A stretch of DNA of 64,000 bases from Fistulifera solaris. Its lineage: Eukaryota. The translations under genes were made by a program, and so were the position numbers. Below, in pieces: positions 24,038 through 48,436 of the stretch. The stretch's first letter is position 1. Each line of letters begins with the position of its first letter. The stretch covers positions 2,356,001-2,420,000 of the forward strand of contig AP026162.1 of the NCBI GenBank assembly GCA_030295235.1, written 5' to 3'. The notes beneath the pieces were generated by a model. The model was not told where the DNA came from and did no database searches. It saw only the letters and a program-made list of their open reading frames with translations.

Positions 24038-25012
24038 CTAAAAGGCACAGCGAGCCTTGGTAACGGCGTTTTTGACCGAGCACATGGTGCGCGAGAACCA
24101 GCTTCCCGTCTTGGAGCAGTCGTTCAATTTCAAGCAGTTGGGAGCCTGTGCACCGATCTCCTCCCTTACTGGTGCAAACCTGCGTTCCTTGAGCGTTGTA
24201 AAAGATGGCGTTGCAGCCACCGCAATAATCATCAATGCAGGAAACGTACTCCTCATCGCACGAAGTTGCTTCGCACGGTGCTTCGAAGCAGCGAACAAAA
24301 GGAGCATCATCGGGACAATCCTTGCCGCAAATTCTCTGACAAACCTTTTCTGCGTTGCATGTGATGCGCCCAGTGCATTCAATGACGGGGTAGATGTTGG
24401 ATGGGTTGAAGCAATCAACGTCTGCGCCGCAGGAGCCCAATTCGAGGCAAGTTCCATCCGCACAGTACCCGCCCTCTTTGCAATCGGCATCCGACTTGCA
24501 AATGTCGTCTGCACCGGTGTGTCCGCGTCCTCCTCAACAAGCGAAGGGACAGGCGTACTCTCATCTCCCGCCCAGCCGCCGGGGAGGTCGCCCTTAGAAT
24601 CGAAGCAAAGAGCATTGCATCCACCGCAATAGTAATCGACACAAGTAGTGGAAGCGGGGCACAGGGTAACGGAGCACGGAGAAGCCAAGCATTCGGCAAC
24701 TGGCTGGTCCTTGGGGCACACGTCAGAGCTGCATTGAACGCCGCACTGATTGTTCACACAGTCGACATATCCCACACAAAGGATCGAGTTGTAGACGTTG
24801 GAAGGGTTCAAGCAATCCGACAGATCACGACAAAAGCCGAATTCTTGACACAATCCACCGGAGCAGTACTGCGAACCGGCACGGCAGTCGTCATCTGAGC
24901 TGCACTCAGCAGCCAGAGAGGAACGGAGGAATCTCGTGGCCGACGATGACTCGGCTCGTGAGGTCGCCATCAACAAGAAGGAACTGGCGAGAACTTTCAG
25001 AATGAGCTTCAT
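24038..25012 (-). CDS. Secreted cysteine-rich repeat protein A (2 modules; frameshifts)
   Basis: Signal peptide and two ~110-aa Cys-rich modules containing DC(L/F)NPSN and CxDxYCGGCNA. The C-terminal tail is WFSRTMCSVKNAVTKARCAF. Confidence 0.8.
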   Translation of the reverse strand: MKLILKVLASSFLLMATSRAESSSATRFLRSSLAAECSSDDDCRAGSQYCSGGLCQEFGFCRDLSDCLNPSNVYNSILCVGYVDCVNNQCGVQCSSDVCPKDQPVAECLASPCSVTLCPASTTCVDYYCGGCNALCFDSKGDLPGGWAGDESTPVPSLVEEDADTPVQTTFASRMPIAKRAGTVRMELASNWAPAAQTLIASTHPTSTPSLNALGASHATQKRFVREFAARIVPMMLLLFAASKHRAKQLRAMRSTFPALMIIAVAATPSFTTLKERRFAPVREEIGAQAPNCLKLNDCSKTGSWFSRTMCSVKNAVTKARCAF

Positions 25013-25124
25013 GATTTTTTACTTTTCTTTGTTCGAATAGGAAATGAATTTTGTGAGCAGATCCATTGATCAAGATTTTGTTGGGTTGTTGCAAGTTGCA
25101 ATCAATCTTGTCAACTATTATCGT

Positions 25125-25148
25125 CAAACGTGCTCCTCCACTCGGAAG
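25125..25148. promoter_or_regulatory. Conserved upstream motif CAAACGTGCTC-N6-TCGGAA (gene A)
   Basis: The same composite motif lies 100-160 bp upstream of all three Cys-rich paralogues, while the surrounding sequence is dissimilar. Confidence 0.5.
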
Positions 25149-25899
25149 AGAAGCATTTTTGCCGTACTTCATAGCGTACTGTAGTTCATTCGTCGCAGAA
25201 CTCATGACTCAAAAATACGTAACGTTAGCAAGCTATGTTGTACCCCTTTGGGCTAGCAAGACCGAAGTGCACGTTTGCTGCTTCGGCATCACATTTCGAT
25301 CGTGTGACATCTATGGTTCGCTTTGTAGTTGTGTCGTAATGCATTACGTTTTCTGGCATATGACTAATGACTACGACCACCCTACGATTGCCGGAGACAG
25401 TATCTGCGTGTCACCTGTCAGCTGATCACTGATCACACCTTTTTGACGAACATGTCTTCCTCTAACAATGTTTGCGGAATAGTTGTCGCCTTAAATCGAT
25501 ATTTTGTTCATGCTTCAGTAGCAACGCTTTGCGTGGAAAAGTATGCACGTCTGAGCAGCTTAAAACTTGGCAAATGTCTGTGATTTGATCATCGTGTATT
25601 CTATCAAATAAACAACTTTGAACTCAATCACGTCTGGTCTTCTTGTTGGTTCTCTTTCTTTTGCGTCAGCAGTAGTTAAAAACTCGAGTTACTTGTTCTA
25701 ATAAGGAGCCTCTGGACTTCAAGCACGTTGCTCGCTGAAAGCACTAGATCTACAGAATAGGTCTTTATCACAAAAAGGTGACTATGAACAAAAGGCAGAT
25801 TTCCTTTCACTTCCGTACTTTATTGATCTTAATTTGATTGATGGCTTGCCAAAGATATGTAATGATTATTCAGAACCTTTTCAAGTGCATGGAACCCCA

Positions 25900-26760
25900 T
25901 CAGTCACTACCTTCCTTCGTGGTGCAAATTTGGCTTCCTTGAGCATCGAAGAAAATGCCTTTGCATTCGCCGCAATAATCGTAGGCGCAGGAAACGTAAT
26001 CCTCGTCGCACGGCGTTTCCTCACAAATCGAAGGGCCACAGGCGACGTTTAGCAAGTCATTGGGACAAAACGGGCCGCAAATCGTCTTACAAATCTTTTC
26101 TTCCGTGCACATGATGTGGCCAGAGCATTCGACTTTGAAAAAGATGTTGGATGGATTGAAACAATCGACCTGTGTCTCACAACTTCCCATTTCGAGACAT
26201 ACTCCATCCGCACAGTATTCATTCTCGCCACACGCATCATCGGAGCTACAACTAGTCTCATCATTGCTCGGAGGATCCACATCATTCTCCTGAGGTGCAG
26301 GATCAAGCACTCCGTCACCTTCCACCGACCCACAGGCCAGATCCCCCTTGGGGTCGAAAAAGAGAGCATTGCAGCCACCACAGTAGTAGTCAACACAGGT
26401 ACTGGGAGATTCGCACGTAGACACCGAGCATGGAGAGGCGAAGCAATCGGCGACGGGCTGACCGTCGGGACACTCGTCGGTGCTGCATTGCCTACGGCAC
26501 TGATTGTCGACACAATCGATGTAGCCATCACAACGGGCAGTGCTGTACTCGTTCGAAGGATTCAAGCAGTCGGCGAGATCACGGCAGAAACCGAATTTCT
26601 TACAAACTCCTCCAGAGCAATACTCTTTCCCGGCACGGCAGTCATCGTCCGAGGTGCATTCGAAATCGTTCGAAATGGGCTTCGACTTTTTGCCATTCAG
26701 TTTGGCATCGCACGACGCGATCAAAATGAAGGCAAGAAGGACGCGAAGAAGGATATTCAT
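25900..26760 (-). CDS. Secreted cysteine-rich repeat protein B (2 modules)
   Basis: Intact 286-aa ORF with signal peptide MNILLRVLLAFILIASCDA and two Cys-rich modules homologous to proteins A and C. Confidence 0.85.
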   Translation of the reverse strand: MNILLRVLLAFILIASCDAKLNGKKSKPISNDFECTSDDDCRAGKEYCSGGVCKKFGFCRDLADCLNPSNEYSTARCDGYIDCVDNQCRRQCSTDECPDGQPVADCFASPCSVSTCESPSTCVDYYCGGCNALFFDPKGDLACGSVEGDGVLDPAPQENDVDPPSNDETSCSSDDACGENEYCADGVCLEMGSCETQVDCFNPSNIFFKVECSGHIMCTEEKICKTICGPFCPNDLLNVACGPSICEETPCDEDYVSCAYDYCGECKGIFFDAQGSQICTTKEGSD

Positions 26761-26855
26761 GATGCTGTTGTTGTTTGCGATTAGGGAGGTGTTGCAAATT
26801 GTGATGTGAGATTAAAACAACAACACACTTTTGTGATGCATCTTCGGAACATTTT

Positions 26856-26878
26856 CAAACGTGCTCATGATTCGGAAC
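26856..26878. promoter_or_regulatory. Conserved upstream motif CAAACGTGCTC-N5-TCGGAA (gene B)
   Basis: Shared with 25125 and 32404. Confidence 0.5.
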
Positions 26879-27154
26879 CGGAACAAAACCTATTTTGTCG
26901 TTATGTTCATGGTATACCTGACGACGGACAAACGACTCGGAACTTGACGCTGCTGCACAGCGTCACAGTTCATTTCGCTCGTGAGCCGGCTAGATTGAAA
27001 ATGGCAGCTTCTCCAACACACTTGTATAGCAATCATTTAGTCGTTCAAGTCCTAAAAGACAGCTCTGGGCAATATAAGGTTTTGTCGCATGTGATCCTGT
27101 GATTCGTGTTTCCTTGTAATTCAGTAGTGACATTCGAAACCTTTCCTCTTGATT

Positions 27155-28065
27155 TCAATCCTGCAGCAGTTGTACGATATGATGAATGAACTGCTCTCGT
27201 TCTTGTTCGTGATTCGACAAGTTGTGATTGGAACTCGGCAAATACAAAGGATGCGCTATCGGGGATGAACTTCCGTGGTTCATCGCATCCACCAGGCGTT
27301 GCGTCAAGGCGGCCTTGTCGACATGATCGGGGACGTATTCATCGGCACCAGAATAAGCTACACAGCACTGAAAGCGTCGTGAGTCGCTTGTGTCGTCTGT
27401 TCTTTCACCAAACGCACTGACATGCTGTAATCGCTCGATGAGTTCCTCGGCAGAGTAATCGGACGAGAAATAATCATCTTTTCCGCCTCGTTCGTGCAAA
27501 TCCAAATAGCGTTCGGCGGTAATCGGAGCCCAAAACGCCTCTCGCGGCATCATTTCTTGCAGTTTGTTTTGATGTCGCATATCTTGGGCGAGACTCAAAA
27601 GTGTGCGTACTGCGGACTCGTTGCCGCATGTTCTCGATCCGAAACGGGGGCTTGCAATACCGCCAAGCGTAACGACTGCTTTCCAGTCTTCAGATAATGG
27701 ACGATGCATTGACAACCGGTCGAATGACCCATAAGTGTAAAAGATTCGGCGCGACGGTGCGTTTGTAAATACAGGAACAGTGTCTCTAAATCTTGTACGT
27801 CCCGATCGAGGGCACCGTGACCGAAGCCCGTATAACTGCTTTGCAGCAATGGCTGGACCAAAGACCACTGTTCCGGTAACTGTTCCGCTAATTCTTTACA
27901 ATAAGGAGTCGGCAGCAATCCGTCCGACAAGCCACCCAAGAGGATGCATTTCGAAGGTCGGGACGGAGAGGTCTCAAAGGCCACCAAATTGGTGGGTGTC
28001 ATGGTGTACGAGAACAAATCTCCGGTGAGAGTGCCGTACGGCGAAGCAGGAACAGGGAGGCGCAT
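27155..28065 (-). CDS. Alpha/beta hydrolase, DUF1749/UPF0613 family (frameshifted)
   Basis: ILLGGLSDGLLPTPY, LQSSYTGFGHGALDRDVQD, nucleophile motif LMGHSTGCQ, LQAPVSDRE, PITAERYLDL..DDYFSSD and SGADEYVP. Confidence 0.85.
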
Positions 28066-28705
28066 AATAAATCAATGATTAAAATGAGGATAAGAAAGAA
28101 CGGAGTATTGTAGACTCTATGCCTTTTTGCTTACAATGAAAGATGCGAGTGAAACGAGTGAAAAGTGCACCGCAAAAATTTGCGGTGCGCGCCAAAAGTG
28201 CGCGCGCACGACGAAGAATCTTTCCTCGTGATTGGAACCTAATTTCCAGTCATGTCACTCACAGGATGGGTCTATAGTCAAAATTAGCAAGCGATCACTG
28301 AAAAGCTTTTCAGTTCAATAATTCGACATGATGAATAGAAACCTAATTACTGAGCTTGTCAATCATCCTAGAACGTTTTTTGATGGCCTTACCAGGTATT
28401 GTACTGGTATAATCGCTCTCCCTTCCTTATTTTTCTCGTGACCGCAATCCAGCCGTGGCAAGGATCCAAGTACATTTGGGGCTATAGTAGATCTCAATAA
28501 TTGGCCACGCTGCTTCGCATTCATTTCCATCGATCTGACTCTATTCTCGCGCTGTTGCATTACCAGGTATTGATGTCAAAGTTTTTTTTATTTAAAAAAA
28601 GAAATAATAATATTCAAAGCCCTTCTCTCCCTATCTAGTTGATCCTCCCTCTTGTCATTATTTGCATTCGAGTCTCGGAGTTCGTTTGGGAATTTCGAAA
28701 GTTTC

Positions 28706-29790
28706 ATGTCGCTGAAAAGAACCGCACCTTGGTTCCTCTTTCTTTGCTGCCTCGTCTCCTGCGTTCAATCTTCTTTATCATCATATTCTGTTTCCGCTTC
28801 CGTCCCCATGGCGCTCCGTAAAACTAGGGCCGGTCGAACATCGTCTATCGTCCTTCCGCGAGGAGGAGGACAACAGCAGCTGCGACACATGGCAACGACC
28901 TTGCATGGTAGTATCTTTTGGAAATCGCAAGGCATCTTGTTGGGCGCCAATTTCCTCGGTTATCTTCTTTCGTAAGTGATTCTTTCGATATTTGATGTGC
29001 ATGTGTCGCTGCACGAGAGGTCTAAAATTGCGCCCGAATGAATCTCTTTTGTTGGATTGACAGTGGTGTATCCTCGTATCACTATCACGTGGACCTGTTG
29101 GGTACGGGTGCGTTTGCGGCGGTCGCGGCATTCACCTTCCGTCGTTCCCCCGTGAGCAGTCTTGCCGTTATGCTGTGGAGTATCAAATTGGCCAGTTTCT
29201 TGTTGTTTCGTGTCGTGCATCACGGTGGACGCGATAGTCGCTTGAATGACACTTTGGCGGATCCCGTTTCGGCGAGTGGGTTTTGGATCATTTCGTGGCT
29301 TTGGGGTGTTTTGGTATCTCTCCCGCATTGTTTGGGGGCCGCATCGGTGACGGCGAGATCCAATGCGTGGCAAAACGCCGGCCTCGTGCTCTTTGCGGTA
29401 GGCTGGATGATGGAAACAGTGGCCGATTATCAAAAGTGGATGTTCAAACAACAATACGCTTCTTCAACTGTGCCCTACTGCAATGTCGGATTGTGGTCGT
29501 GGTCGCAACATCCCAATTGGTGCGGAAATCTCTTGCTTTGGTTCGGGATATGGATGATGAATGCTCCTTGTCTAATCGCGCCGCAAGCGAAACACATTGT
29601 TGCAAAATACGGACGTTTATTACTCTCGTGTCTCGGACCATTGTTTTTGTTTGCGCTCTTTCATGGTCAAGCGACCGGCTGGATCTTGCCGTCGGCATTG
29701 GAAGCCACGAAACAGAAGTACGGGTACGGTACGGATTCGGAGTATACGAATTATGTTAATCGGACGCCCCTTTTGTTTCCATGGGTTTGA
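28706..29790 (+). CDS. DUF1295 / steroid 5-alpha-reductase-like membrane protein, 2 exons
   Basis: Intron about 28972-29063, WSIKLASFLLFRV..GRDSRL, ETVADYQKW and NVGLWSWSQHPNWCGNLLLWFG. Confidence 0.85.
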
Positions 29791-30130
29791 AATGTGTCAG
29801 AAACGACTTCATCTCAAGATAACATGGATACAGTAAAAATGCTTTGTTTGGACGTCATCGCGCCGTTCATTGTGATTGCGATACTGGTATACTGGTACAG
29901 CATCATCAATCTTCACCGTCGAACTAGAGTCCTGAGCGTGGTCGCATAACGCTCGCCTTTCAAACGCACCCCTCAGAATAGCCAGCTCCAAAAAGCAATC
30001 AAAAGTGCAGCTACAAGTTCGAGTGGAAGTGAAATTCGTTTTATTACTGTTCATGCATGTTCATCTATTATGTAACTCATTCAATTCACTACGACTGAAC
30101 GATTCTGGATCTTTCTGTTTGGAACGATGT

Positions 30131-32247
30131 CTAAAAGGCACAACGCGCTTTCTTGAAAGCTTTCTTCACAGCGCAGGTGGAGCGTGAGAACCAGCTACCG
30201 TCTGCGGGGCATGCCATTTTCTTGGAGCAATCAGAGCCAGTATCATCGGGCGCATCCGTGCTGGCGCAGACTTCCTTTCCTTCGGCGTTGAAAAGATGGA
30301 GTTGCACGCGCCGCAGTAGTTGTCGATGCAGGAAACGTAGTCTTCGTCGCACGGATTGGCTTCGCAAGGAGCTTCGAAGCAGCGGACAAGTGGTTCATTG
30401 TTCGGGCAACTGCTGCCACAAATGGTTCTGCAGGTGCCTTTTCTGCTGCATTTCACGTAGCCGATACAGTCGAGCATTGGAAACATGTTGGATGGATTGA
30501 AGCAGTCGACATCCTCGTTACACGAGCCGAATTCAAGACATGTTCCAGCTGCACAGTATTCGCCATCGCTGCAATCCGCATCGGAGCCGCAAGTGCCATC
30601 GCTCACTGGAGTGTCTGGGTCTTCTACTGGAAAGCCAGGTGCATTTCCTGTTGGATCGATGCAGATCGCATTGCATCCACCACAATAGTAGTCGACACAA
30701 ACAGAGGGAGCCAGGCATGTCGTGGCAATGCAGGGTGGGAACTCGCATTCGGTGAAAGGCTCGCCTTTGGGACAGTCGCTGTTGCTGCATTCTCGGATGC
30801 ATTGGTTGTCCACACAATCAATGTATCCGACGCACCGGACCGTTCCGTATTCGTTGGAGGGGTTCAGGCAGTCGGTGAGGTCGCGGCACGTTCCGTGGTC
30901 TCGACAGACTCCACCGGCACAGAATTGATCAACGCAATCGTCATCGCTCGAGCAAGTCTGTTCAGGAGATACTCCCGTACTGTCGTCCGGGCCGCAAACC
31001 TGACGCCCCGCCGGATCGAAATAAAGAGGAGAGCATCCATCACAGTCATTCAAAACACAGCGAGCTTCGTCACCACATTCTTTCGGATCACATGTGGCTT
31101 CACCGCATGGAACTGGATCGCCACCATTCTCAGGGCACTCGCCGCCACAGACACGGCCGCAGAACCCTTCTTGGCAAAGAACAGGACCCGTGCAGAAGAT
31201 GGTGCTGTAGATGTTGGACGGGTTATAGCAGTCGAAGTCAGACGAACAAGCGCCGAAATTGCGACATTCACCCTGGGAGCAGTACTGGTCAGTGGTGTTA
31301 CAATCTGAATCGAATTCACACAAAGTAGTCTCTGATTCAGGCAGTTCCAAAAGCGAGGGCTCGGGCGTACTGCCATCAATCATAAAGCCGGGTACGTCTC
31401 CAGTAGGATCGAAGCAGAGGGCATGGCATCCACCACAAACGTAGTCCACACACATAGCGGGAGCCATGCAAGTCGTGGCTATACAGGGTGGGAACTCGCA
31501 TTCGGCAAGAGGCTGATCCTCAGGGCATTCACTGTCACTGCATTGTCGAGTGCACTGGTTGTCGACACAGTCAATGTAGCCAACGCAAAGAATCGTGTTG
31601 TACTCGTTCGAAGGATTCAAGCAATCAACCAAGTCGCGGCACGTTCCATGATCTTGACAGACCCCACCGGCGCAGAACTGGTCCGTGCAATCATCGTCAC
31701 TTGAGCATGTCCCCTGAGGCTCAGGGACTTCTTCCGTCCTTTCGTCTTCCGGGGGCGTGGGTTCACCCGAACCGTCACCGTCGACCGAGCCGCAAGCAAG
31801 GTCTCCTTTGGGATCGAAAAAGAGAGCATTGCATCCTCCACAGTAATAGTCGACACAGGTAGTCGGAGAAATGCAGGTCGAGACTGAGCACGGTGATGCC
31901 GCGCAGCGGACGGATGGCTCGCCGCCAGGGCATATGTCGGGGCCACAAATGGTAGTGCATTGGTTATCCACACAGTCCGTGTAACCAAGGCAGAGAATGG
32001 AGTTGTACATGTTCGAAGGATTTAAACAGTCAGATAGAGAGCGGCAAAACCCAAACTCCTGGCACAGTCCACCAGAGCAATACTGCGAATCAGCCTGACA
32101 GTCATCGTCCGAGGCACATTCCAAGGCCAGGGAAATCTCCTGCAGTTTTTTCTTATCCTTGTTATTCTTCTTCTTGTCCTTCGACTTGGCATCGCACGAT
32201 GCCGAGAGCAAGAGAGAGGCGACAAAGAGACGAAGAAGGATGTTCAT
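30131..32247 (-). CDS. Secreted cysteine-rich repeat protein C (5 modules; frameshift near 30295)
   Basis: Signal peptide, Lys-rich KSKDKKKNNKDKKK segment and five tandem Cys-rich modules. The tail WFSRSTCAVKKAFKKARCAF is in the shifted frame. Confidence 0.85.
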
Positions 32248-32403
32248 GGTAGATGTTTATTGTAGTGCTTTGCTTTCTTATTATTTGGTAAAGTGAAGGT
32301 ATTCGTAAATTTTGTGAGAACTACAAAACAGCGACACCTTCGCTTTCGCTTCGACCTTATTGGCAGTCGATCGTGTGAATCTCTAATTACATCTAGCAAG
32401 ATT

Positions 32404-36072: not shown

Positions 36073-37236
36073 TCATGACGAGAGGAGAGACGGACTGTGC
36101 GTCACAGTTAAAGCCGAGCAATTGACAAAGTCGTGCAACAAAGGTGTGTAGCCCGTCAACCAACTTTGTGTCGCCTCCACTTGTTCCGGTCCGTAGGCTT
36201 GTAAGAATTGGGATTGTTTCGAAGTAGTGACGACGCCTTTGTGGAACGTTTGTGCGGCCCGGTGCAATTGACGAAAATCCGTCGGAAACAGTATATCACA
36301 GTGTTGATCGGCGTTGGGCGTTAAATAGCAAAGATGATCCCGATCGTTCATGTCGGTAATGATGGGCTCACCCGGAGCCCAAGTCGAGTGACGATGGTGA
36401 CTGTACAATCGATTGGGTTCGGGCAAATGATCAAAATCCATAATTAGCAATTGAGTAGCCGATGGATGTTCCAGAATCTGCTGCAATAAACGGAAGGCCA
36501 CGGCGGGGAACCATGTGACCGGTCTTCGGTGATGCCCGACGAACTGTGACACCATTTGCTGCAGTAAGGGATCCGTAAGAGGGACAAAAACTTCGTGCCG
36601 TGTTCCGTCTGCCATAGCATGGACTTCAGCTTGTTCGATGCTCTGTGAACCGGGTCGGAAGCGAATTTTGTCGTGCGGAAGGTTGTCGAGTACTTCCAGT
36701 GCTAATACAAACGTGGTAGTATCTGCTGTTACATCCGGAATCAACGCGGAGTTCTGCTCATTGGGCTGCTCGGCTACCTGCAATAGGTCCAGTTGACGAA
36801 AATTCATCTTGTCGTGATGCTCCTTCGCTACCGTTTCTTGTTGAAGTTCCAGCAACGTTGGAGAACTATCCACTAGTGTATATTGTATCAGTCGATCATA
36901 CACGTCCGGTGATCGTCGTTGCAGCGCTTGCAAAACGCCATTCGCATTCGTACCTCGACCTCCGCCCAGTTCGACAATTTGTAGCTTCTCAAAAGTCCCT
37001 GTATGATGCGCAATGAAATGAGCGATCGTATTCGAAAAGTACGGCTGAAAGAGTTCGACGGGTGTCAGCCATTGTCCAGCTGTTTGTCGATACAATCTTT
37101 GGTAGACATTCTGCCAATGCCATTCGCCCCAGAGGGATCGAAAATCAATGCGACGACTCGCCGCACCGACGACAGCCGCGGACGGTTGTGCGTAATACGC
37201 GGCCAGCTTTTCGGCAATGTAGTGTCGCACGAGCAT
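36073..37236 (-). CDS. NDUFAF7/MidA-like SAM-dependent methyltransferase
   Basis: WLTPVELFQPYFS, IVELGGGRGTNA, LALEVLDNLPHD and CDILFPTDF. Confidence 0.8.
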   Translation of the reverse strand: MLVRHYIAEKLAAYYAQPSAAVVGAASRRIDFRSLWGEWHWQNVYQRLYRQTAGQWLTPVELFQPYFSNTIAHFIAHHTGTFEKLQIVELGGGRGTNANGVLQALQRRSPDVYDRLIQYTLVDSSPTLLELQQETVAKEHHDKMNFRQLDLLQVAEQPNEQNSALIPDVTADTTTFVLALEVLDNLPHDKIRFRPGSQSIEQAEVHAMADGTRHEVFVPLTDPLLQQMVSQFVGHHRRPVTWFPAVAFRLLQQILEHPSATQLLIMDFDHLPEPNRLYSHHRHSTWAPGEPIITDMNDRDHLCYLTPNADQHCDILFPTDFRQLHRAAQTFHKGVVTTSKQSQFLQAYGPEQVEATQSWLTGYTPLLHDFVNCSALTVTHSPSLLSS

Positions 37237-38097
37237 GGTGTCTGTGTTTCCTATGAGTTATGGCGAGTCAACATGGTGAATAAAAGTATCATTGATTCGT
37301 CTAACTAGGCGCGTAATATTTGCCTTTGTTTATTGATGGCAAATACCGGTAAAAATAATAAATGGGGTGCGGATAGCAGCATTATGCGTAATGTCGCATT
37401 ACTACTCGAAGGACTATAAACAAAAAGAAGACGACTTTTCTCAACGACTTAATTGACTTTCAGTCCCGAAGTATTCTACTTTTATGAATCATAAAAACTT
37501 TCCTTGTCTAATGCTCTGCTTTTACGTGCCACTTTAGGTCCTCTGTTCATAATGATGAAAATAAATAACATTTGAGGCCTCCATACTGTGACTTTCGTTG
37601 TTTCGATGAAATGAAGGAAAATAATTGGCTTCAGTCACGTATATACTATGATATTAACTGTCGGACGAATTGCTGATTCAGTCCCGGAACAAACTGGAGC
37701 AAAATAGTGCGGGCGCGAGAACATTCTTTTTTGTCTGTTTGTTGTAAGGTTTGTTGATGCGACGGTTGTAATACTCTTTTCAACCTATTACCGAAACTTA
37801 TTGAGGAAAATGATTTTCGTGGATTCGCTTATAGAGCTCCTTACATCGGCAAATGTCGAATGACTGCTTTGCGGAACGGGGACCGACCGTGTAAAAGGAA
37901 TGACGGTGCGGATTTTTCAGGGACCAATGCAACACACTTTTTGAGAAAGGTCACCTTTCCTTCACCGAACAAAAGTGGATGTTCGGTTCTCTCAAAGAAC
38001 TACAAAATTCTTCGCCGGAAAAGATTCGTTGAATGCGAATATCGTTTGCGGTATCTTTCTAATTATCTTGTCGACAATTTACGAATAAAGACTCAAG

Positions 38098-38712
38098 ATG
38101 GAGTCTGTTGACACTCTTCATCAGAAAGGAAGACTTTACTGTCGTCAAATTGAAAAGTATTTGGAAAGCACCAGTGCGAACAACGATGACTTTGATCTTG
38201 GGGAGTGTCTGGAGAAGACCAAGAAAACGTTTCAACGAGGTATCGGCATGGCGTTTGAACAAGGATGCACATACTCGGGGGCAAATTTACGCCTGTCCTA
38301 TGCTTCTCTCCTTACTCGGGTGTGCAAGTCGGGACGCATATCCTCGGACGCGTATCAGGAGGAAGGATTGTCGATGCTGAACTGGATCATTACGCACGAA
38401 GGCGCAGTAGGACAAGACGTCGTAGCCAGGGCTCGCGCTGAAAAGCTGCAACTGGAAAATGCTGACCTTGTGCAGATTGTTCAGGCGATGAAGGTTGTTA
38501 CGGGATACGATTACGGCGGGCATTGGTCGGATCATTGGTACGAATGCCCCAATGGGCATCCGTATTTCATCGGCGAGTGCGGACGTGCTGCTTTTGAGTC
38601 GAACTGCATCGAGTGTGGGGCGCGGATCGGAGGACTTGGGCATAACCTACTTGAGACGAATCGCCCAGCGAACAGTTTAATATCCCGTGCTCGGGCCTCG
38701 ATTCCCAATTAG
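38098..38712 (+). CDS. Stand-alone RZ-type zinc-finger protein, homologous to the C-terminus of the adjacent ZNFX1-like gene
   Basis: 204-aa ORF with HWYECPNGHPYFIGECG....SNCIECGARIGG..H, collinear with the last ~210 aa of the 44223-45314 ORF. An in-frame TAA lies at 38086-38088 just upstream. Confidence 0.8.
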   Translation: MESVDTLHQKGRLYCRQIEKYLESTSANNDDFDLGECLEKTKKTFQRGIGMAFEQGCTYSGANLRLSYASLLTRVCKSGRISSDAYQEEGLSMLNWIITHEGAVGQDVVARARAEKLQLENADLVQIVQAMKVVTGYDYGGHWSDHWYECPNGHPYFIGECGRAAFESNCIECGARIGGLGHNLLETNRPANSLISRARASIPN

Positions 38713-39709
38713 TACGGAGTAGTTAACTGTGATGTTGATGGTATTCTACTTGATATTGTTCATTTGTAAAACGTCGTTTAACTCCAAAATAGAAGTAGTT
38801 TCATCAGAGTACGGTAATCTTTCGGGAGGTTGTCCGCTTATTAGAGAAACTCAAAGGACAGAGACTACCTTAGCTGAGATTCTAGGTTGATTATTATTTG
38901 AGTACCGATACGATACGAATGGCTTTGCGTTGCTTTGCGACTTTGCGACGCGAATGAATAAAACGCGAGACGCAAATAATGTAAATGAAGTCTTGATGTT
39001 GTGTTTCATAGTCTATATATTTTTAGCTGTATTCCCGATTCGAGCTGTTGACGTTGAATGAATAGCTCGATTTTTCGAAAGACTTAATTCGTTCTAATTG
39101 CCTATCTTCGCAGTGCAAAGAGAGCGTTTTTTATACGAGCCAATCTGAATCAGCCTAGCTTTCGTTGTTGTCTGTTCGGTTGGCAATCTAGGCAGGAAGC
39201 GAGTGACGCGAACATGAACCACGCCAGAACACACATAAAATAATGAGTACAGTTCGCACAAAAACGTTCGGCAAATTTTCGTGGACCAATCAGAAGTGAA
39301 CAAATGATATGCTGAAAGATCTTCACCTAAAAACTACACGGAGCATTCGGGGCCAGCAAGATCTTTTCTCTTTTTCGCCAAGATGTAAAGGCGACCGACG
39401 TACTCGGCACGTTGAACGCTCTGCCGCATATTCATTTCATTCGGATTTCGTTTCAATGAAATCTCAAAGGAGACAGCAACGCACGAAAAAACGTGTCTAA
39501 ATCGAGTCTACGCTATCTCATTACAAAGCTTAATTGGGCTCTCTGGCACGAGTCTATCCAATCTTTTCAGTCAAAGAGTAAACAAGGTAAACAGCTGAGC
39601 CGTCTCACGTTTGGTTTCGATTCGTGGTGGAACTGAGCTCAGTTTTCTTTTTCCACTCTTGCTCAGCATTCCATCTGCGAAGAAGCGTCCACTGACGGCG
39701 AAGGACGCC

Positions 39710-42700
39710 ATGGGAAAGAAGCATTGTGGCGGGCGTGGGCGCGGGTCCTCGAATGGTGGCAGACAAGGGGGCAGGACTTCAACCGCATCACGCACACAGT
39801 TTTCCGGTGATATGTCGTATCGTCGTAGAAGGTTTTTCGATGCTCTAGTCAAAAAGAAACAGCTACTTTCGAGGGGAAAACTCAAGTGTTACGTTTTATT
39901 GAAGGAATGGAGAGCTTCTCTTCCAAAGCTGAATTGATGGACAAGATCGAAGATCGTCGGGACCATGGCATGAAGCGTATTCGTGAAATGTTAAGCTACT
40001 TGAATTCCATTGAAGATGTCGATCAAATTCTCGTCCGCATACTTCGCTTGTTTCTCGATAAAGAGCTTGACAAGCCTATGTATCTGCCCAAACGCAACAA
40101 GATTCTCATGGCGATCTATATCTCCCCATGTTTGATGGAGACACTCGTTGCACGAGATGCCGCCTCACAGCTTCATCAAGAAGCCGCGGAATATCTTTGT
40201 CTATTCCTGCAAGAAATCTCCAAAGCTTTCATGGAGGCCAGGAAGTCTGAGTACGTCACGACGATGGCAAAGTCTTTACGAAGTCGCGGTGAGGGTAGAT
40301 GCTGCGACCCTTTGTGCAATCCTACTGGTGGATGAACAGGTCGCCATCGACGAGAATGCTTTGTACTTAAAGACTACGAATGATAAGACATCGGTTTGCT
40401 GGGTTACAGACAACATTCCGCCAGGAGGAAGACACGACAACGACGAGCGGAGTTTCCGTGACATTCAAATTCTCCCGACGACAGATGAGCTTTGTTGCGA
40501 GGCTAAACCATGGCTGCCTTTACGTGACCAAAATGCGATCATTAATGATCCTGCGACGCGCTTGCTAGACAAGCATTTTCGTCTTTTAAGAGAAGATGCT
40601 ATATCCACTATCAAGGAAAATATTGAGCAACAAACGCGGTCGTGGAAAAATGCCAGAATTGTTGATTTGGACTTCACAGGCTTCGGAAAGAGCAAGCTAT
40701 TTACCTTTCTGGTCCAGCTTGATTCTCGTCCTGGAGGCAACCCCAAGTGGGAAATTTCCCGTGCACTCATGCAAGGGTCCGTTGTCGCTTTGTGTATAGA
40801 CGGAGCACCTCATCTGATGGGCAGAATCTCCCATCGAGATCATGAGACTCGTGGCGCCTGGCTCAAAGATCCTCAAGGCCCTATTGTGGGTGTGTTCTTC
40901 GAGCCACACACGAAAGACTTCCAAAACGCGTTGATTGATGTTTTGAAGAATCTTCCTTATAGTAAGCACGAGTCTAACGAAATCATGCAGGAGGAGCCAA
41001 CTAGATCGAAACAGAAAAAGAGCAGTGGAAAGGATCAGAAGAACGATGGTGGAAATAAGGGAAAGCCGAAAAGAAGGGCGGCGGAGCGAACCATCAGAGT
41101 GACTGCGCATCATCCAAAACTTTCCATGAGTTGCAGAAGTACGACTTGGTCGAAGCGTCATCTTCCTTTTTCACCTATCAACCGATACTTGCTTCGCTTC
41201 AATCAAAATATTCACTACCATTTCTGGAAGAGCTTTGTAGCTCTTCTTCGCTGAGAATTTCTCACCCTCCCAACTATCTTCCGGATACGCTTTGCATGCC
41301 AAAGGGAAAAAGTTTTAATGGATATTGTTGCAGCATATCTTCGTGGTCGTCTGCTGATCTTGTAAGCAACACGAGCTTGGATTCAAGTCAAGCAGATGCT
41401 CTTCACCATGCATTCACGTCACGAGTCTCGCTTATACAAGGTCCGCCAGGAACAGGAAAGACTTTTATCGGGGCTTTGATTGCTCGCATGATTCGGGAGA
41501 ATACGAATCAATCCATTCTTTGCATCTGCTTTACTAATCATGCTCTGGATCAATTCCTTGAACACATGCTCGACGCAGGAGAGACTAGTATAGTTCGTTT
41601 GGGAGGAAGATCGAAATCCGAAAGATTGAGAGGATACGGTCTTCGCGATTTGGTTCACAGCAAGGCACAGAAAACCAACTTTTCTCGGATGAAACAAATC
41701 GATGGCCAGCTTCATTCTCAACGTGAACAAATCCAGCAGTGTATCAAGACGCTAAAGACCCAGATTAGTTGGCAAAGTCCCCTTGGAGGTATTCAACGAT
41801 TCCTGCAAGACGAATATCCCGATGAATATGAATGTTTTCCTGACATGTCGGAAGACGCAGATGGGTTCAAGACGGCGGGGAAGAAAGGGAAGGCATTCTA
41901 AAGGGACGAGCTCTGGATACGATGGATCAAGGGAGAAGCGTTTCCTGACTTTTTGCGAGACAGGCTTAACCCATTTGGGCCCGATATGTTCGAGGACTTC
42001 TGGGCTATGCCTCACAACGCTCGACTGGATCTTGTAGATGCATGGAAGAGTGATATGTTTGCGGAAACGGTCGAAAAATTGAAGGATGCTTTGACTGACT
42101 ACAGTGACTTGGTGCGCGAGCGGGATGCGCTAAAACAGACAGAAGACTTACAGATTCTAAAAAGTGCTCGAGTCATTGGCGCCACGACCACCGGTGCGGC
42201 CAATTTCAAGGATTTGCTAGCTTCGAAAGCGGCCGGGGTCATCATTATTGAAGAAGCAGGCGAAGTTCTTGAAAGTCACGTACTGTCGGCTCTACATGCG
42301 AACTCGACAAAGCACTTAATTATGATCGGCGATCACAAACAACTGCGTCCGAAAGTTGAAAATTATTCCCTTTCGACTGTATCAGGGCACGGCTATGATC
42401 TTGATTGTTCACTCTTTGAACGGCTTGTTTTGTCGAATCTACCTTCTGCGACACTCAACGTTCAACATAGAATGCGTCCCGAGATATCACAGTTTATACG
42501 GTCTCAGACATATCCGCAGCTACAGGATCACAGTTCGGTTCGTGAGTTTCCCCACGTGAAAGGCGTCACGCAAGACGTAGTCTTTATTAATCATACGGTC
42601 CTGGAGGACGGGGCTAGCGCGAAAGACGATGATTTGGGGAAGACTAAGTCGAATACCCACGAAGCCGAATTGTGTGTCGAGATCGTTCGATTCTTTCTGT

Positions 42701-45314
42701 TGCAGGGTTATGCACCTAGTCGAATTGCCATCTTGACACCATATCTTGGACAGCTGATGAAAATACTGAGCTTGGTGAGAAGTAGTCTCCGTGAAGCAAT
42801 AGCGTGTGTTAGTGAACAAGACCAGCGCGACCTTGAGGACATCGGAGACGAGAATGAACCTGTGAATGACGAAGTCTCTGATAGAAGTGTCAGGTGCTCC
42901 ACGGTCGATAATTTTCAAGGAGAAGAAGCTGATCTTATTGTCATCTCACTTGTAAGATCCAATAATCTTGGAAACGTCGGTTTTCTCAAGGAGCCACAAC
43001 GAGTGAACGTTCTCATGTCTCGTGCGAAGCATGGAATGTTCATTGTTGGCAACGCTTCCGCTTTGCGAAATTCGAAAGCGGCGAAGAAGGTATGGGATCC
43101 CATTCTCGACCGGTTAGAGTCGGAAGGAAGGCTACTACCGGGACTTCCTACTTACTGCTCGCTCCACCCCGATGACGATCCCATTGTTCTCTCGAAAATG
43201 GAAGATTGGAGAACATGCAGACCGAATGGTGGTTGCAGCAGGCCGTGCCACTTTCGTATGGAATGCGGTCATGAGTGCACTTCCAGCTGTCATCCAAACG
43301 ACAAGGACCACAAACTGCTTCAACGGAACTGCTGCAAACCTTGCAAGCGAGTACCATCGGAATGTCCGTTCGGTCACCAGTGTAACAAGTTGTGTAAGGA
43401 AGATTGCGGCACATGCGACGTTAATGTCGGCAACGTACGCTTGAACTGTGGCCACTCGATGGACAACGTTCGGTGTCACCAAGTTTGCAACGACAAACAA
43501 GTCGAGACGTTGACGAAGCTTTGTATGCATCCTGTGTCACACGTCTTTACTGCCTGTGGCCATACAGCTCAAACTAGTTGCGGAAACGCCAATCGTCCAA
43601 GCCCTGTATGTCCCTTAAAATGTGGTAAAGCGATCGAGCTCTGCGGTCACCCCTGTACGCGGGATTGTGGTTCCTGTGAAGGTGATCACTTCTGCGAACT
43701 GAAATGCGAGCGCGTTTTGTTTTGTGGTCATTTATGCGGACGTCAGTGTCACGGCAGCGAAGAATGCCCTCCTTGTTTTGAACGGTGTGCAGTAAAATGT
43801 AGCCATTCGGGTTGTCCAAAGAAATGCCACGCACCGGTGAGTCCACCACGTTTCCCAATGTCTATCTTGTGTTATCGTGTGTCTTACGTTAGTCGGAACA
43901 GTGTGCTTCATGTGTAGAGGACTGTGAATGGGAATGTGAACACCAAGGCCGTTGTGATGTTGTTTGTGGCGCTCCTTGTACAAGGCTGCCATGTGATAAG
44001 GTAAGAGTAACGTTCGCACCAAATGATGGCATGCGTTCAACCCATACTGAAGCTCTGTGTCGTTCTTATTCTAGCGTTGCCAGAAGAAGCTTGAATGTGG
44101 ACACATTTGCCCGTCGGTCTGCGGTGAACCATGCCCCTCGAAGAAATACTGCCAAGAATGCGGAGAAGATTGGGTCAAGTCTCATGTCCTCGATGTGATT
44201 TTACTTCAAAACTACAGAGACCATGACGTGGATGATGACCCTATCGTTGTTCTCCCCCTGCGGTCATTTCTACGCAAGTAGCACAATGGATGGGCATCTG
44301 GCGATGTCCGAGGTGTACGAGAAGTGCCAGCGAACCGGCAAGTTCATCGGATTGAAGAGTCTCATGGATGCCAACGTCAATGAAAAGCCGGCTGTTTGTC
44401 CGGACTGTCGATCAATAATTCACTCGGTACGGCTATATGGGCGGTTCCTCAACTTGAAAGGGTTGAGGAGCTTAGAGCGCAAGCACATGTTTCTTGTTCG
44501 GAACAAATTGGCAGGTCTACATCGTATTCGCGAGGAAGGTACAACGCACGATGAATCAAAGTTTTTGAAACAGTTGCGTGAGCTTGAGAAGACAATTATG
44601 AACAGTCCTATGAGAAAAGTGAAGAATGCGTGTTTGTCGTCTGCTCATTCGATGGAAGTGCCTTCGCCTCCAGTCATCCCGCTGCTGGGAACATTGGAGC
44701 TTAGAGGACAAGTGTATTCCGATCAGATAGAAAAACTATTGAAAGTGGACCGCGCAATTGCTGCAGATGAAGTGAAGAATAAAGCGATGGATATGGTCCA
44801 GGAATGTTTCGAGCTGGCAGCAGAGACGTATCGAAGAGGAATTGCGATTGCGGATGGATCCGAAAGCAAGAGATCTGGTGCTACCTTGCGACTGGCGTTT
44901 GCTTCGCTCCTTTGCGGAGTCTCCAGGTCGCGTCGTATTCCTGGAGATGGATTGAAAGAGGAAGCAGACGCAATGATGGATTGGATCGTTGCGAACGAAG
45001 CCGTTCTCGGAAATGAACTTGTGACCAGGGCCCGCAGAATGAAGCAAGATTTCGATAACCGCGACATCCTCGAGGTTGTAATGGCGATGAAAGTCGAAGG
45101 AGGTTATGACTTTGGCGGAAGTTGGTCCAGCCACTGGTTTGAATGTCCCAACGGGCACCCCTATTTCATTGGAAATTGCGGAGGCGCCATGCAGGAATCC
45201 AACTGTCTCGAGTGCGGTGCCCGAGTTGGAGGAACTAGCCACAATCTCATTGCATCAAACCGCCGAGCGAATGGTTTAATAGCGCAAATTAGAGCTGCCG
45301 CACCGCAGCTTTAA
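39710..45314 (+). CDS. ZNFX1: ZNFX1-like protein: UPF1-like SF1 RNA helicase, NF-X1 zinc fingers, RING-like region and RZ finger (2 introns, several frameshifts)
   Basis: PGGRHDND..FRDIQILPTTDEL, LLDKHFRLLRED, LIQGPPGTGKT, CFTNHALDQFLE, IIEEAGEVLESH, IGDHKQLRPKV, SLFERL, QHRMRPEIS, TVDNFQGEEAD and RVNVLMSRAKHG. These are followed by CGH.C repeats, CGHFY..CPDCR and the C-terminal HWFECPNGHPYFIGNCGGAMQESNCLECGARVGG. Confidence 0.92.
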
Positions 45315-45655: not shown

Positions 45656-48436
45656 ATGAAGTGGCGAGAACGGAGGAGGAGCCTCTGCTGTAGGCTCCTT
45701 TTGATGTTTTCTCTCCTTCCCACAATGCACTCCTTTGTCGCCTTGCAGCGTTCGCAGCAGCGCGCTCTCTTGCATCCTTTGCATGGCATTCGAGGTTTTC
45801 GCACATGGCTGGAATCTACATATCCCGACGCAATTTATCCGATCCGTCGAAATCAAGACCAGGAGAACTTCGATCACGTTTTGATCGATCTGAATCAATT
45901 CTTACACATTATTGTTCGAAACAGTCGATCCGACGAACACGCCTTGTTATTACTGATGAAAGAATTAGATTTGCTAATACAAATGGCGACTCCGACTAAG
46001 TCGCTGGTCTTGGCCATTGACGGACCTCCCAGTGCCGCGAAGTTAGCCACACAACGGCAACGCCGTCTCGAGAAAATTATCAAAGTAGAACGAACCTTGA
46101 AGCGACTCAAACAACGTCCCCTTCGCGTCGCTCGCCGAAAGCGTTCCATTTTAGGGGATACGCGCGTACTGGCCTTGACGCCCTCCACAAAATTCATGAA
46201 ATCCGTAGAGCAGGCCTTGTTGTACTGGACGTGGCAACGATTGAGCAATCGCAATTCGTGTTTACCAGAGGGCGTTCATGTATATATTAGCCCGAGTTCC
46301 GCACCTGGAGAAGGAGAAGTTAAATTATTGGAATGGTTGTATCGACATGCGTCTCAACCTCATCAAATCAACGAGTCCGTGGCTTTGTTGGGAGGTGATG
46401 CCGATTTAGTAGTCGAAGGGCTGATGCTGAATCGACCCAATGTGTTTTGTTTACTACCGCATGTGAAGAAACAATTTTCCTGTGTGAGTGTGTGGCAGCT
46501 TACGCGTGATCTAGCGCGAAAAACGGGAGTACAATATGCCGACGAGCTGCCGCAGCGAAGACTCGATTGGGTCTTATTGATTCTGTTGAATGGGAATGAC
46601 TATGTCAACAAATTGCGTGGATCGAGTGGCTTCAATCGTTTAATGAAGGCGTACAGCAAAGTCCTGCGTCATTATCCCAATGGCGGTCTGGTAGTCATAG
46701 AGTCGCTGGACTTTCAGCTAGATTTTTGCATCGAGTTCTTTCAAGAATTATCACGAAATTTGCAGCCCTTTAGCGAAACATCTGCTGATGAATGTGATAC
46801 CTGCTTAAGCAAACTATATCAATTCGCGGCGACAGGCTATCTACCACAGCCGGTCAATTTCGAGATCAAGTTGGACGTCATCGATGAAAACAATGGAGTG
46901 AATACAAATAAAGAGGACGACGACGAAGCTTTCGATTACGAAGCTAATTCTCTTTTTCTTGGACTAGACGAGGAGGACGACGTTTCAGAAACCGGATTCG
47001 ATATTGGATACGATGAAAGCGACGAAAATGATACCACTGGCAAGAATGAGTTAGTGTTGCAATTGGGGGATCCTGCCTCGGATGATTATTATGAATTCTC
47101 GGCATGGGTCCCTCAAGGACATAAGTTGAAGGGGGCTAAACAACGACTGGCCTCCGTAGCTTTACGGGAGCTTTTGGTCACTGATGAGATAGAATTTGTG
47201 CTGGATGACATGAAAGTAAGAGGGAAAATGATTGAATGTGATGTGCCCTTATATTTGTACGGGCTCCTGTGGACACTACAAACTTATCAAGACGGCGCAT
47301 GTGCGGACTATGGATTCCAGTATGGCGACCGTCGCTTGGCACCGTCAGCAAAAGATTTAGTGGAATACTTCGAGCAAGCGAAAGCGGCCGGTCGGTCCAT
47401 TGGTATCTCTTCTCTCCGCAATGGCTATACACCGCCTGTTGCAGCTGGAATCGCTTGCTTGGCAGCCTTGCCCTTGCAAGCAAAAGAGTATATTGCGGAG
47501 CCGTACAAGTACCTCGATGATGAATTTGTGGAATCTACTTTTCAAAGCTGCGTAAACGAAACTTCGCTTACTTTTAATATGAAATTGTTTGCGCACCTCT
47601 GCAATGACGAAGTTAAAAAGCGCGCTCTTTCGGATGATCGATTCCATATTTCTGAACCAAAAGCACACTCTACCAACTCATTAGGGAGGGAACGGCAGAT
47701 AACAATGGGTGACGATTCCTGGACTGTGCTGACAAAAAGGGATGAAAGCCTAGTGCATCCATTTCAACCACCAGAACCTTTCTTGGATCGTCTATCGGAG
47801 TTATGGCACAACAATTATATCCAAGCGCAAAGAGTCAATGCAACCTCTTCGCCACGACCTCGCTCCGTATGGAACGAGGCAACAACTCAGGACCACCAAA
47901 GTGTTGCAAGTAAGGATCGTACAGCGAATCGTCGTGAAAACACGGATGCACCCAATTTATCTAAAGTCGGAAATGGCACACTTATTGAAGATGTCATCTA
48001 CGGCGAGGCTTACCAAAAGCCAGTGAAAATAGCTAAGGCCATAAGGAAAAGTGCTACGTCTCGAAACGACAAAACCCCGAACATAAGAGATACAAGTGCC
48101 CCGATTTCTTTAAGAGACGGGGTGACAGCGTTAGCGTGTTTGAAGCAGTTAGAAGATAAGCGCTTCATCGGTAAAATAGATTGGTCTGCAAAGCCTATTC
48201 TAGGCAACGACGCCTTAATCGAAGAGAGCTGGACACTTGTCATCGATAAGGGAGGATGTCTGAATGACAAAGCTGTGTTTCAAGGCGTACGGGAACCAAA
48301 AATGACAAAACAGTCTGTAAAGCAAGAATTATCGAGCCAAGCCCTTACTCACATACTAGGAAATGTAAATTGGGCCAACTTATCTTACCAGGAAATCCGA
48401 AGTTTGATTAAGACAAAGATGTCTGTAACTGAGTGA
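45656..48436 (+). CDS. XRN-family 5'-3' exoribonuclease-like protein with N-terminal targeting peptide
   Basis: GIRGFRTWL, FDHVLIDLNQFLH, LAIDGPPSAAKLATQRQRR, LTPSTKFM, PGEGEVKL, GGDADL, GNDY and YLYGLLWTLQTY..LAPS. A hydrophobic leader precedes the XRN start. Confidence 0.85.
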   Translation: MKWRERRRSLCCRLLLMFSLLPTMHSFVALQRSQQRALLHPLHGIRGFRTWLESTYPDAIYPIRRNQDQENFDHVLIDLNQFLHIIVRNSRSDEHALLLLMKELDLLIQMATPTKSLVLAIDGPPSAAKLATQRQRRLEKIIKVERTLKRLKQRPLRVARRKRSILGDTRVLALTPSTKFMKSVEQALLYWTWQRLSNRNSCLPEGVHVYISPSSAPGEGEVKLLEWLYRHASQPHQINESVALLGGDADLVVEGLMLNRPNVFCLLPHVKKQFSCVSVWQLTRDLARKTGVQYADELPQRRLDWVLLILLNGNDYVNKLRGSSGFNRLMKAYSKVLRHYPNGGLVVIESLDFQLDFCIEFFQELSRNLQPFSETSADECDTCLSKLYQFAATGYLPQPVNFEIKLDVIDENNGVNTNKEDDDEAFDYEANSLFLGLDEEDDVSETGFDIGYDESDENDTTGKNELVLQLGDPASDDYYEFSAWVPQGHKLKGAKQRLASVALRELLVTDEIEFVLDDMKVRGKMIECDVPLYLYGLLWTLQTYQDGACADYGFQYGDRRLAPSAKDLVEYFEQAKAAGRSIGISSLRNGYTPPVAAGIACLAALPLQAKEYIAEPYKYLDDEFVESTFQSCVNETSLTFNMKLFAHLCNDEVKKRALSDDRFHISEPKAHSTNSLGRERQITMGDDSWTVLTKRDESLVHPFQPPEPFLDRLSELWHNNYIQAQRVNATSSPRPRSVWNEATTQDHQSVASKDRTANRRENTDAPNLSKVGNGTLIEDVIYGEAYQKPVKIAKAIRKSATSRNDKTPNIRDTSAPISLRDGVTALACLKQLEDKRFIGKIDWSAKPILGNDALIEESWTLVIDKGGCLNDKAVFQGVREPKMTKQSVKQELSSQALTHILGNVNWANLSYQEIRSLIKTKMSVTE

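What the first reader, a model, noticed from the sequence alone, without database searches (positions are those of the whole stretch)
38098..45314. ZNFX1-like RNA-sensing helicase/E3 ligase paired with a stand-alone duplicate of its RZ-finger module
Seen: the 204-aa ORF at 38098-38712 aligns end to end with the C-terminal ~210 aa of the ZNFX1-like gene 1 kb downstream on the same strand. Examples are QIEKYL/QIEKLL, SGANLRLSYASLL/SGATLRLAFASLL and GYDYGGHWSDHWYECPNGHPYFIGECG/GYDFGGSWSSHWFECPNGHPYFIGNCG. It is strongly diverged yet uninterrupted, keeps all RZ Cys/His residues, and has no helicase, NF-X1 fingers or RING. Known: ZNFX1 proteins act in antiviral RNA sensing and small-RNA inheritance, and the RZ finger shared with RNF213 mediates non-canonical ubiquitylation. 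Inference: this may be a two-gene innate-immunity unit in a diatom, with the mini-RZ protein acting as a trans-acting catalytic partner, regulator or viral decoy.
Basis: partly seen in the sequence, partly recalled or inferred. Interest (0 to 1): 0.72.

Follow-up and report, generated by a model that had tools for sequence, protein, structure and literature searches.

The report
Stand-alone RZ ubiquitin-ligase module beside ZNFX1
A diatom carries a small, conserved gene that encodes only the ubiquitin-transfer end of the RNA helicase-ligase ZNFX1 next to it; it is a real gene and probably an active mini-enzyme, but whether it works with ZNFX1 or in virus defence is untested.

Summary
Observation confirmed. 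The 204-aa ORF (38098-38712) matches the last ~212 aa of the ZNFX1 gene 998 bp downstream at 49% identity and keeps all four Zn ligands and the Cys/His dyad at human spacing. The DNA is Fistulifera solaris-type. It is a real gene: the homoeologous copy is intact (dN/dS 0.23), five more same-length, Met-started relatives (49-75%) form one clade with it, an in-frame stop lies 9 nt upstream, and one RNA contig covers part of it. It folds as a TPR-like helical domain plus RZ finger, starts at a domain boundary, and lacks ZNFX1's E2-docking Z-RING. It arose once, by partial duplication in a narrow diatom lineage. Best reading: an active, uncoupled RZ transthiolation module, most likely acting in trans on the ZNFX1 pathway (about 0.4). 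Partnership and immunity are not shown; tandem duplication alone explains the adjacency. The scan noted the same pair on another piece of this genome (e1-7527536).

The parts
38098..38712 (+). Stand-alone RZ gene ('mini-RZ'), 204 aa, no intron
   Evidence: homoeologue on C2 89% = FisN_12Hh086; dN/dS 0.23
38107..38457 (+). TPR-like helical domain, residues 4-120
   Evidence: AlphaFold2 model, mean pLDDT 88; TPR/solenoid matches Z up to 12.7, a level common for helical bundles
38461..38493 (+). Short helix 122-132 before the RZ finger; likely counterpart of the ubiquitin-binding helix of human RZ (inferred)
   Evidence: model; A130 and M131 at least 90% conserved in 73 aligned sequences; human helix described
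38527..38664 (+). RZ finger: Zn ligands C150, H154, C170, C173; nucleophile C161; base H182
   Evidence: PF20173 E 4.6e-22; RNF213 PDB chains E 1e-10; spacing as in human ZNFX1
38086..38088 (+). In-frame TAA three codons before the ATG, also in the C2 copy
37914..37928 (+). CCAAT-containing word shared with the ZNFX1 upstream region (39276-39290); suggestive only
   Evidence: 8 matches in the genome, 4 of them at these two genes on C1 and C2 (pattern chosen after seeing the sites); independent footprint test not significant
39242..39340 (+). Non-coding block conserved upstream of all three ZNFX1 copies (promoter footprint)
   Evidence: local alignment C1 vs C19 score 68, 0 of 200 shuffles as high
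39710..45314 (+). ZNFX1 gene (SF1 helicase, NFX1-type Cys/His stalk, Z-RING/Miz-like domain, helical domain, RZ); = FisN_12Lh085
   Evidence: introns 43837-43901 (from the annotation) and 44001-44074 (spliced contig)
41899..41901 (+). TAA in the ZNFX1 frame, before Walker B; probably a real nonsense allele of this homoeologue in this strain
   Evidence: NCBI model P0229 skips it with a 99-nt predicted intron; 99.9%-identical environmental copies P0340, P0343 and run X2 read Lys; homoeologue P0342 reads through
44259..44411 (+). Z-RING/Miz-like E2-docking domain of ZNFX1 (C-x-H ... C-x2-C-R), absent from the mini gene
   Evidence: C26, H28, C72, C75, R76 conserved in alignment A3; pattern as described
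44676..45314 (+). Part of ZNFX1 that the mini gene duplicates; begins right after a Pro-rich linker

Best explanation
The small gene is a maintained partial duplicate of the ZNFX1 C-terminus that encodes a self-contained TPR-like domain plus RZ finger (shown; about 0.93). It most likely still works as a transthiolating ubiquitin-transfer module: ubiquitin passes from an E2 to C161, with H182 as base, and on to a substrate (inferred from conserved residues and from human RZ biochemistry; about 0.7). Having lost helicase, stalk and Z-RING, it cannot sense RNA or dock E2 as ZNFX1 does, so it is uncoupled from RNA control. The most likely use is as a free extra RZ arm for the ZNFX1 pathway: loaded by E2 held on a ZNFX1 Z-RING or by free E2, it would shift flux towards the RZ route, which in human ZNFX1 makes K48 chains and drives ZNFX1 turnover (inferred; about 0.55 given activity).
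For: All six RZ residues kept in 7 of 7 family members at 49-88% identity. dN/dS 0.23 overall and 0.13 in the RZ part, Fisher p 2e-7 and 6e-4. One clade, support 100/99, grouped at 100/100 with the ZNFX1 tails of its own lineage among 81 rows. Start falls at the first helix after a Pro-rich linker in the ZNFX1 model; model pLDDT 88. One 158-base contig with no mismatch in a run that also holds a spliced ZNFX1 junction. In human ZNFX1 an isolated RZ fragment auto-ubiquitylates with UBCH5B, and ubiquitylation occurs in trans between molecules; the RZ route makes K48 chains and drives turnover. The neighbouring ZNFX1 keeps a Z-RING with an Arg at the linchpin position. Pair kept on both homoeologues.
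Against: Adjacency needs no explanation beyond tandem duplication and was seen only in this genome; 0 of 38 JGI loci show the pair and the DNA of the five outside relatives could not be read. The Met four residues after the catalytic Cys, present in 177 of 200 other RZ sequences, is absent from 7 of 7 family members, so catalysis may be altered. Family-specific changes in the helical domain (Arg-Ser-Gly-Ala to Tyr/His-Ser/Ala-Gly-Ala, F53/E54, C57) suggest a new binding surface. One member, P0107, has an eroded RZ region. One paper found all full-length activity to depend on the Z-RING E2 site. The ZNFX1 next to this copy is probably truncated in this strain. Expression evidence is a single short contig.
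Confidence: 0.4

Rival explanations
1. Independent small E3: after duplication the helical domain took on its own substrate or E2 contact, and the protein now works apart from ZNFX1; the neighbourhood is only a trace of its birth.
For: Family-fixed changes cluster in one helix pair (residues 53-59) and differ from residues fixed in ZNFX1 tails; long stem branch (0.3) then slower change; isolated human RZ is active without a Z-RING; the third ZNFX1 has no mini neighbour.
Against: No substrate motif found; the fold match is generic; linkage kept on both homoeologues; a similar upstream word (weak).
Confidence: 0.28
2. Brake or sink: it binds ubiquitin, E2~Ub or a ZNFX1 partner, accepts ubiquitin poorly or does not pass it on, and so dampens ZNFX1.
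For: Loss of the conserved Met beside the catalytic Cys in 7 of 7; no E2-docking domain; eroded member P0107. Truncated paralogues often act as dominant-negative regulators (general knowledge, not from a call).
Against: Nucleophile and base are both kept in 7 of 7 and the RZ part is the most constrained (dN/dS 0.13); a pure sink would not obviously need the base.
Confidence: 0.17
3. Decoy for a viral antagonist of the ZNFX1 C-terminus, or a guard in a two-gene antiviral unit.
For: Human ZNFX1 restricts RNA virus through its E3 activity; nothing direct in diatoms.
Against: No sign of fast change: dN/dS 0.23; 49% identity to the supposed target is low for a mimic; the genome has RdRP genes, so ZNFX1 may serve small-RNA silencing instead (Hrr1 and C. 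elegans links).
Confidence: 0.08
4. Not an independent gene: a decaying fragment or the last exon of a longer gene.
For: Short RZ 'proteins' in databases are mostly last-exon calls of ZNFX1; L030 is a real truncated RZ tail with an in-frame stop and no start; AG/GG precedes the ATG.
Against: dN/dS 0.23 at dS 0.25; seven same-length members with a shared Met-Glu start; in-frame stop upstream in both copies, and the C2 copy has GG, not AG, before the ATG; no ZNFX1 remnant in 8 kb upstream.
Confidence: 0.05

Closest known systems
RZ finger of human ZNFX1 (bioRxiv 10.1101/2025.10.14.682297; 10.1101/2025.09.05.674436)
   Same: Zn ligands and Cys/His dyad at identical spacing; short helix before the finger; derived from a ZNFX1 C-terminus
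   Different: Separate 204-aa gene; no helicase, NFX1 stalk or Z-RING/Miz domain; Met after the catalytic Cys lost
RZ finger of RNF213 (PMC12075652; PDB 9jw1, 8s24, 7oik)
   Same: Sequence match over about 39 residues, E 1e-10; same dyad
   Different: RNF213 is about 5,000 aa, ATP-controlled, with its own E2-docking CTD; nothing outside the finger matches
Diatom ZNFX1 (FisN_12Lh085, FisN_12Hh085, Epithemia ACA910_008397)
   Same: The last ~212 aa are homologous end to end, 47-52% identity to the window protein
   Different: Full-length 1,780-1,820 aa; keeps the Met and the Arg-Ser-Gly-Ala motif

Membership tests
RZ-finger transthiolating E3 modules (PF20173) | Profile match above the curated cut-off | tested here: met
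   77.8 bits against cut-off 27
RZ-finger transthiolating E3 modules (PF20173) | Four Zn ligands C-x3-H ... C-x2-C | tested here: met
   C150, H154, C170, C173; 7 of 7 members
RZ-finger transthiolating E3 modules (PF20173) | Catalytic Cys (+11) and His base (+32) | tested here: met
   C161, H182; spacing as human C1860/H1881 and mouse RNF213 C4462/H4483
RZ-finger transthiolating E3 modules (PF20173) | Ubiquitin-binding helix before the finger (human I1835) | tested here: inconclusive
   Hydrophobic helix 122-132 present, but no human ZNFX1 sequence came back, so the residue could not be mapped
RZ-finger transthiolating E3 modules (PF20173) | Ubiquitin thioester formation and discharge | not testable with these tools
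   needs biochemistry
ZNFX1 family (small gene) | SF1 helicase, NFX1 fingers and Z-RING/Miz in the same chain | tested here: not met
   Only PF20173 in 204 aa; no remnant upstream. It is a derivative, not a member
ZNFX1 family (large gene) | SF1 helicase with Walker A and EEA-type Walker B | tested here: met
   AAA_11/AAA_12; motifs at P0229 578 and 815; human EEAA
ZNFX1 family (large gene) | Cys/His stalk, Z-RING/Miz-like domain, C-terminal RZ | tested here: met
   the stalk was read from the sequence, Pfam gave no NFX1 hit; the E2-contact Phe (human F1575) was not mapped
ZNFX1 family (large gene) | Intact reading frame | tested here: inconclusive
   Four frameshifts absent from the NCBI model; TAA at 41899 probably real in this copy; homoeologue P0342 intact, 1820 aa
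Two-gene antiviral unit | Conserved linkage across species, co-expression, physical or functional coupling | tested here: inconclusive
   Linked on both homoeologues only; 0 of 38 JGI loci show the pair; promoter test not significant

The most novel reading that the evidence does not exclude
A natural split of the ZNFX1 ubiquitin circuit: a free RZ protein, separately regulated, that is loaded in trans by the ZNFX1 Z-RING and sets the balance between RNA-trapping K63 chains and K48-driven turnover in a diatom's RNA defence. It would be the smallest natural transthiolating RZ ligase and a handle on a domain that stays unresolved in RNF213 and ZNFX1 structures.
Probability: 0.25. Interest if true: 0.75.

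Novelty: new variant of a known kind. Interest (0 to 1): 0.46.

Why it matters
In the papers read, the RZ finger is described only inside the very large ATP-driven proteins RNF213 and ZNFX1, and it is unresolved in their cryo-EM maps. A 204-aa natural protein with a well-predicted fold, kept by selection, offers a small system to solve the RZ active site and to test whether RZ can work apart from its own E2-docking domain. It also gives an entry to RNA defence or silencing in diatoms. The reach is limited: the family is small, confined to a narrow lineage, already in NCBI as a hypothetical RZ-type protein, and without functional data.

Tried and rejected
Complex prediction of the small protein with the 376-aa ZNFX1 C-terminal module: no answer, score 0.00, alignments not used; not evidence either way. 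JGI metagenome scan with the single protein: 109 pattern matches, none confirmed; with alignment A1: 38 loci, none in the mini clade; 28 of 38 have upstream ZNFX1 parts, 10 do not, and only L030 of those 10 was read. IMG/VR scan: 47 pattern matches, none confirmed. Foldseek against PDB: no match at E 0.001; VIA rows cover residues 1-135, so the RZ part was barely tested. ESM Atlas: best score 0.84, a lead only. No RNA holder on record; X1 covers all 30 bins including intergenic DNA and was treated as DNA; the two 151-base X4 pieces were not counted as expression. Shared promoter: whole-region alignments not above shuffles (55-145 of 200 as high); a profile built from the three ZNFX1 upstream blocks alone gave E 0.94 and 8.3 upstream of the small gene, and the matrix score tied for about 6th-8th of 127,964 positions; the other genome matches lie at unrelated genes or inside a retroelement, so no regulon is claimed. 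The roughly 340-aa RZ proteins were first taken for a stand-alone family and rejected: they begin at the Z-RING and are last-exon calls of ZNFX1. My first reading that all ZNFX1 breaks are assembly errors was withdrawn for the TAA. Literature searches (listings only) showed no paper on a stand-alone RZ protein or on diatom ZNFX1; the paper that defined RZ was not read and bioRxiv supplements are closed, so a mention there is not excluded.
Full report
1. The ORF at 38098-38712 gives 204 aa without a break and aligns with the end of the downstream gene at 49% identity over 205 columns, E 3e-70. Pfam finds only the RZ finger in it. Its C150, H154, C161, C170, C173 and H182 repeat the spacing of the human ZNFX1 Zn ligands, nucleophile and base (10.1101/2025.10.14.682297, parts 1-3 of 6 read) and of mouse RNF213 (PMC12075652, 12 passages read).

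2. Where it lies. The window is G000 C1:2356001-2420000. The genome search found five RZ fingers among 8 candidates: this gene, its copy on C2 (89%), a ZNFX1 behind each, and a third ZNFX1 on C19 with no small neighbour. Named NCBI records place the DNA in the diatom Fistulifera solaris: the C2 copy is FisN_12Hh086, the large genes FisN_12Lh085 and FisN_12Hh085. C1 and C2 are about 88% alike over 14.7 kb, as homoeologues of a hybrid genome would be (that the species is allodiploid is recalled, and fits the H/L gene names).

3. It is a maintained gene. Between the two copies dS is 0.25 and dN 0.058 (ratio 0.23, Fisher p 2e-7); the RZ part gives 0.13, the helical part 0.27; the matching ZNFX1 codons give 0.15 and the upstream methyltransferase 0.17. 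Five further proteins of 198-209 aa from Logan assemblies (P0002-P0005, P0107) are 49-75% identical and start Met-Glu at the same column; their DNA could not be read, so that they stand alone is inferred from length, start and clade. Both genomic copies have an in-frame TAA ending 9 nt before the ATG; the upstream gene runs the other way 861 bp off, and no ZNFX1 remnant was found in 8 kb upstream. Expression evidence is thin: run X6, which holds the spliced 44001-44074 junction, has one 158-base contig inside the small gene with no mismatch, and covers 9 of 30 bins, all in the two genes.

4. Origin. In a tree of 81 rows (7 small proteins, the 3 ZNFX1 tails of this genome, 71 tails from P0001-P0130 chosen for an upstream Z-RING motif; fragments and the duplicates of C19 left out; midpoint root) the small proteins form one group, 100/99, joined at 100/100 with five ZNFX1 tails of the same lineage. 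One partial duplication in a narrow diatom lineage, older than the split of the C1/C2 and C19 ZNFX1 genes, is the simplest reading; direction is inferred from nesting. The start Met sits where P0071 has an internal Met, just after the Pro-rich linker that precedes the first duplicated helix. Of 38 JGI loci with a related tail, none belongs to this group or shows the pair; 28 have upstream ZNFX1 parts.

5. Anatomy. The model (73 sequences, pLDDT 88, pTM 0.74) shows helices 4-120, a short helix 122-132, the RZ finger and a closing helix. The helical part matches TPR-like solenoids at Z up to 12.7, rmsd about 2.6 over 107-123 residues, which is not specific. What is missing is the helicase, the Cys/His stalk and the Z-RING/Miz-like domain, which the large gene keeps (C-x-H, C-x2-C, Arg at the linchpin position). 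Family-specific changes: the Met at catalytic Cys+4 is in 177 of 200 other RZ sequences with this spacing (near-duplicates included) and in RNF213 but in 0 of 7 members; an Arg found in 31 of 39 scored outside sequences is Tyr or His in 7 of 7; residues 53-57 are also remodelled.

6. The neighbouring ZNFX1 in this assembly. It has 1-nt breaks near 39850, 40293, 41069 and 44254 and a TAA at 41899. The NCBI model P0229 runs through all four breaks in frame; contigs of runs X1 and X2 correct three of them in the rows shown, and the 6.9-kb X2 contig has four gaps in all. These are assembly errors; the downstream gene shows similar indels. The TAA is different: P0229 avoids it with a 99-nt predicted intron that removes 33 codons kept in the homoeologue and in relatives, the X1 contig with A carries the C2 alleles, and two 99.9%-identical environmental copies and X2 read Lys. 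So this copy is probably a nonsense allele of the cultured strain, with the C2 copy (1820 aa) intact. This is recent and does not explain the small gene, which is far older.

7. How it most likely works. Shown: gene, fold prediction, residues, selection. From human work: an isolated RZ fragment auto-ubiquitylates with UBCH5B and needs the Zn site, the catalytic Cys and the helix before the finger; ZNFX1 ubiquitylates in trans; the RZ route builds K48 chains and drives turnover, the Z-RING route K63 chains that trap RNA (10.1101/2025.09.05.674436, 12 passages and the Discussion read). Inferred: the small protein is an RZ transthiolation module freed from RNA control, most likely adding RZ capacity to the ZNFX1 pathway in trans (0.40). 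Rivals: independent small E3 (0.28), brake or sink (0.17), viral decoy (0.08), fragment or exon (0.05). Whether diatom ZNFX1 is antiviral is itself unknown; the genome has RdRP genes on four contigs, and ZNFX1 relatives act in RNAi. A CCAAT-containing word upstream of both genes hints at shared control or a duplicated promoter, but the independent test was not significant.

8. Novelty. It works like an RZ E3 module and meets the sequence tests for one; it is not a ZNFX1. Six literature searches (listings only) showed no report of a stand-alone RZ protein or of diatom ZNFX1; closed bioRxiv supplements and the unread paper that defined RZ could bear on this. Short RZ entries are common in databases, mostly as fragments, so other true cases may exist. 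The scan noted this pair before on another piece of the same genome (e1-7527536), probably the C2 copy; that is not independent support. Verdict: real, new variant of a known kind, function untested; interest 0.46.

Noticed in passing
window 41899-41901: Probable strain-specific nonsense codon in one ZNFX1 homoeologue, hidden in the NCBI model by a predicted 99-nt intron; environmental copies read through.
   Followed up: yes
window 44195-44215: At the start of the Z-RING the C1 copy reads VILLQNY where C2 reads MIEFHDY, the pattern usual in the family; may touch the E2-contact surface.
   Followed up: partly
G000 C19:944285-949812 (L009): Third ZNFX1 paralogue, about 71% DNA identity, with several frame breaks and about 170 bases fewer in a low-complexity insert; NCBI lists its last part as a separate 367-aa gene (FisN_6Hu037). 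No homoeologue with an RZ finger was found.
   Followed up: partly
L030 3420-3957: An independent truncated ZNFX1 tail in another diatom-like contig, with an in-frame TGA and no start codon, between unrelated genes: such fragments arise repeatedly and usually decay.
   Followed up: partly
P0107: Divergent member of the small family with the aromatic-glycine linker and the residues before the catalytic Cys eroded and a 5-aa deletion after the His base.
   Followed up: partly
window 45656-48436: Gene with an XRN 5'-3' exonuclease N-terminal domain directly downstream of ZNFX1 on the same strand, also on C2; not next to the C19 copy.
   Followed up: no
window 36073-37236 (-): SAM-dependent methyltransferase (PF02636) divergently transcribed from the small gene.
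   Followed up: no
window 24000-32300: Several related repeats of one gene family (66-78% DNA identity among copies) seen in the C1/C2 comparison; not identified.
   Followed up: no
P0165: A 272-aa database protein with five tandem partial RZ-like repeats.
   Followed up: no
P0167, P0205: About 200-aa RZ proteins from amoebozoan transcriptome assemblies; could be unrelated stand-alone cases or fragments.
   Followed up: no
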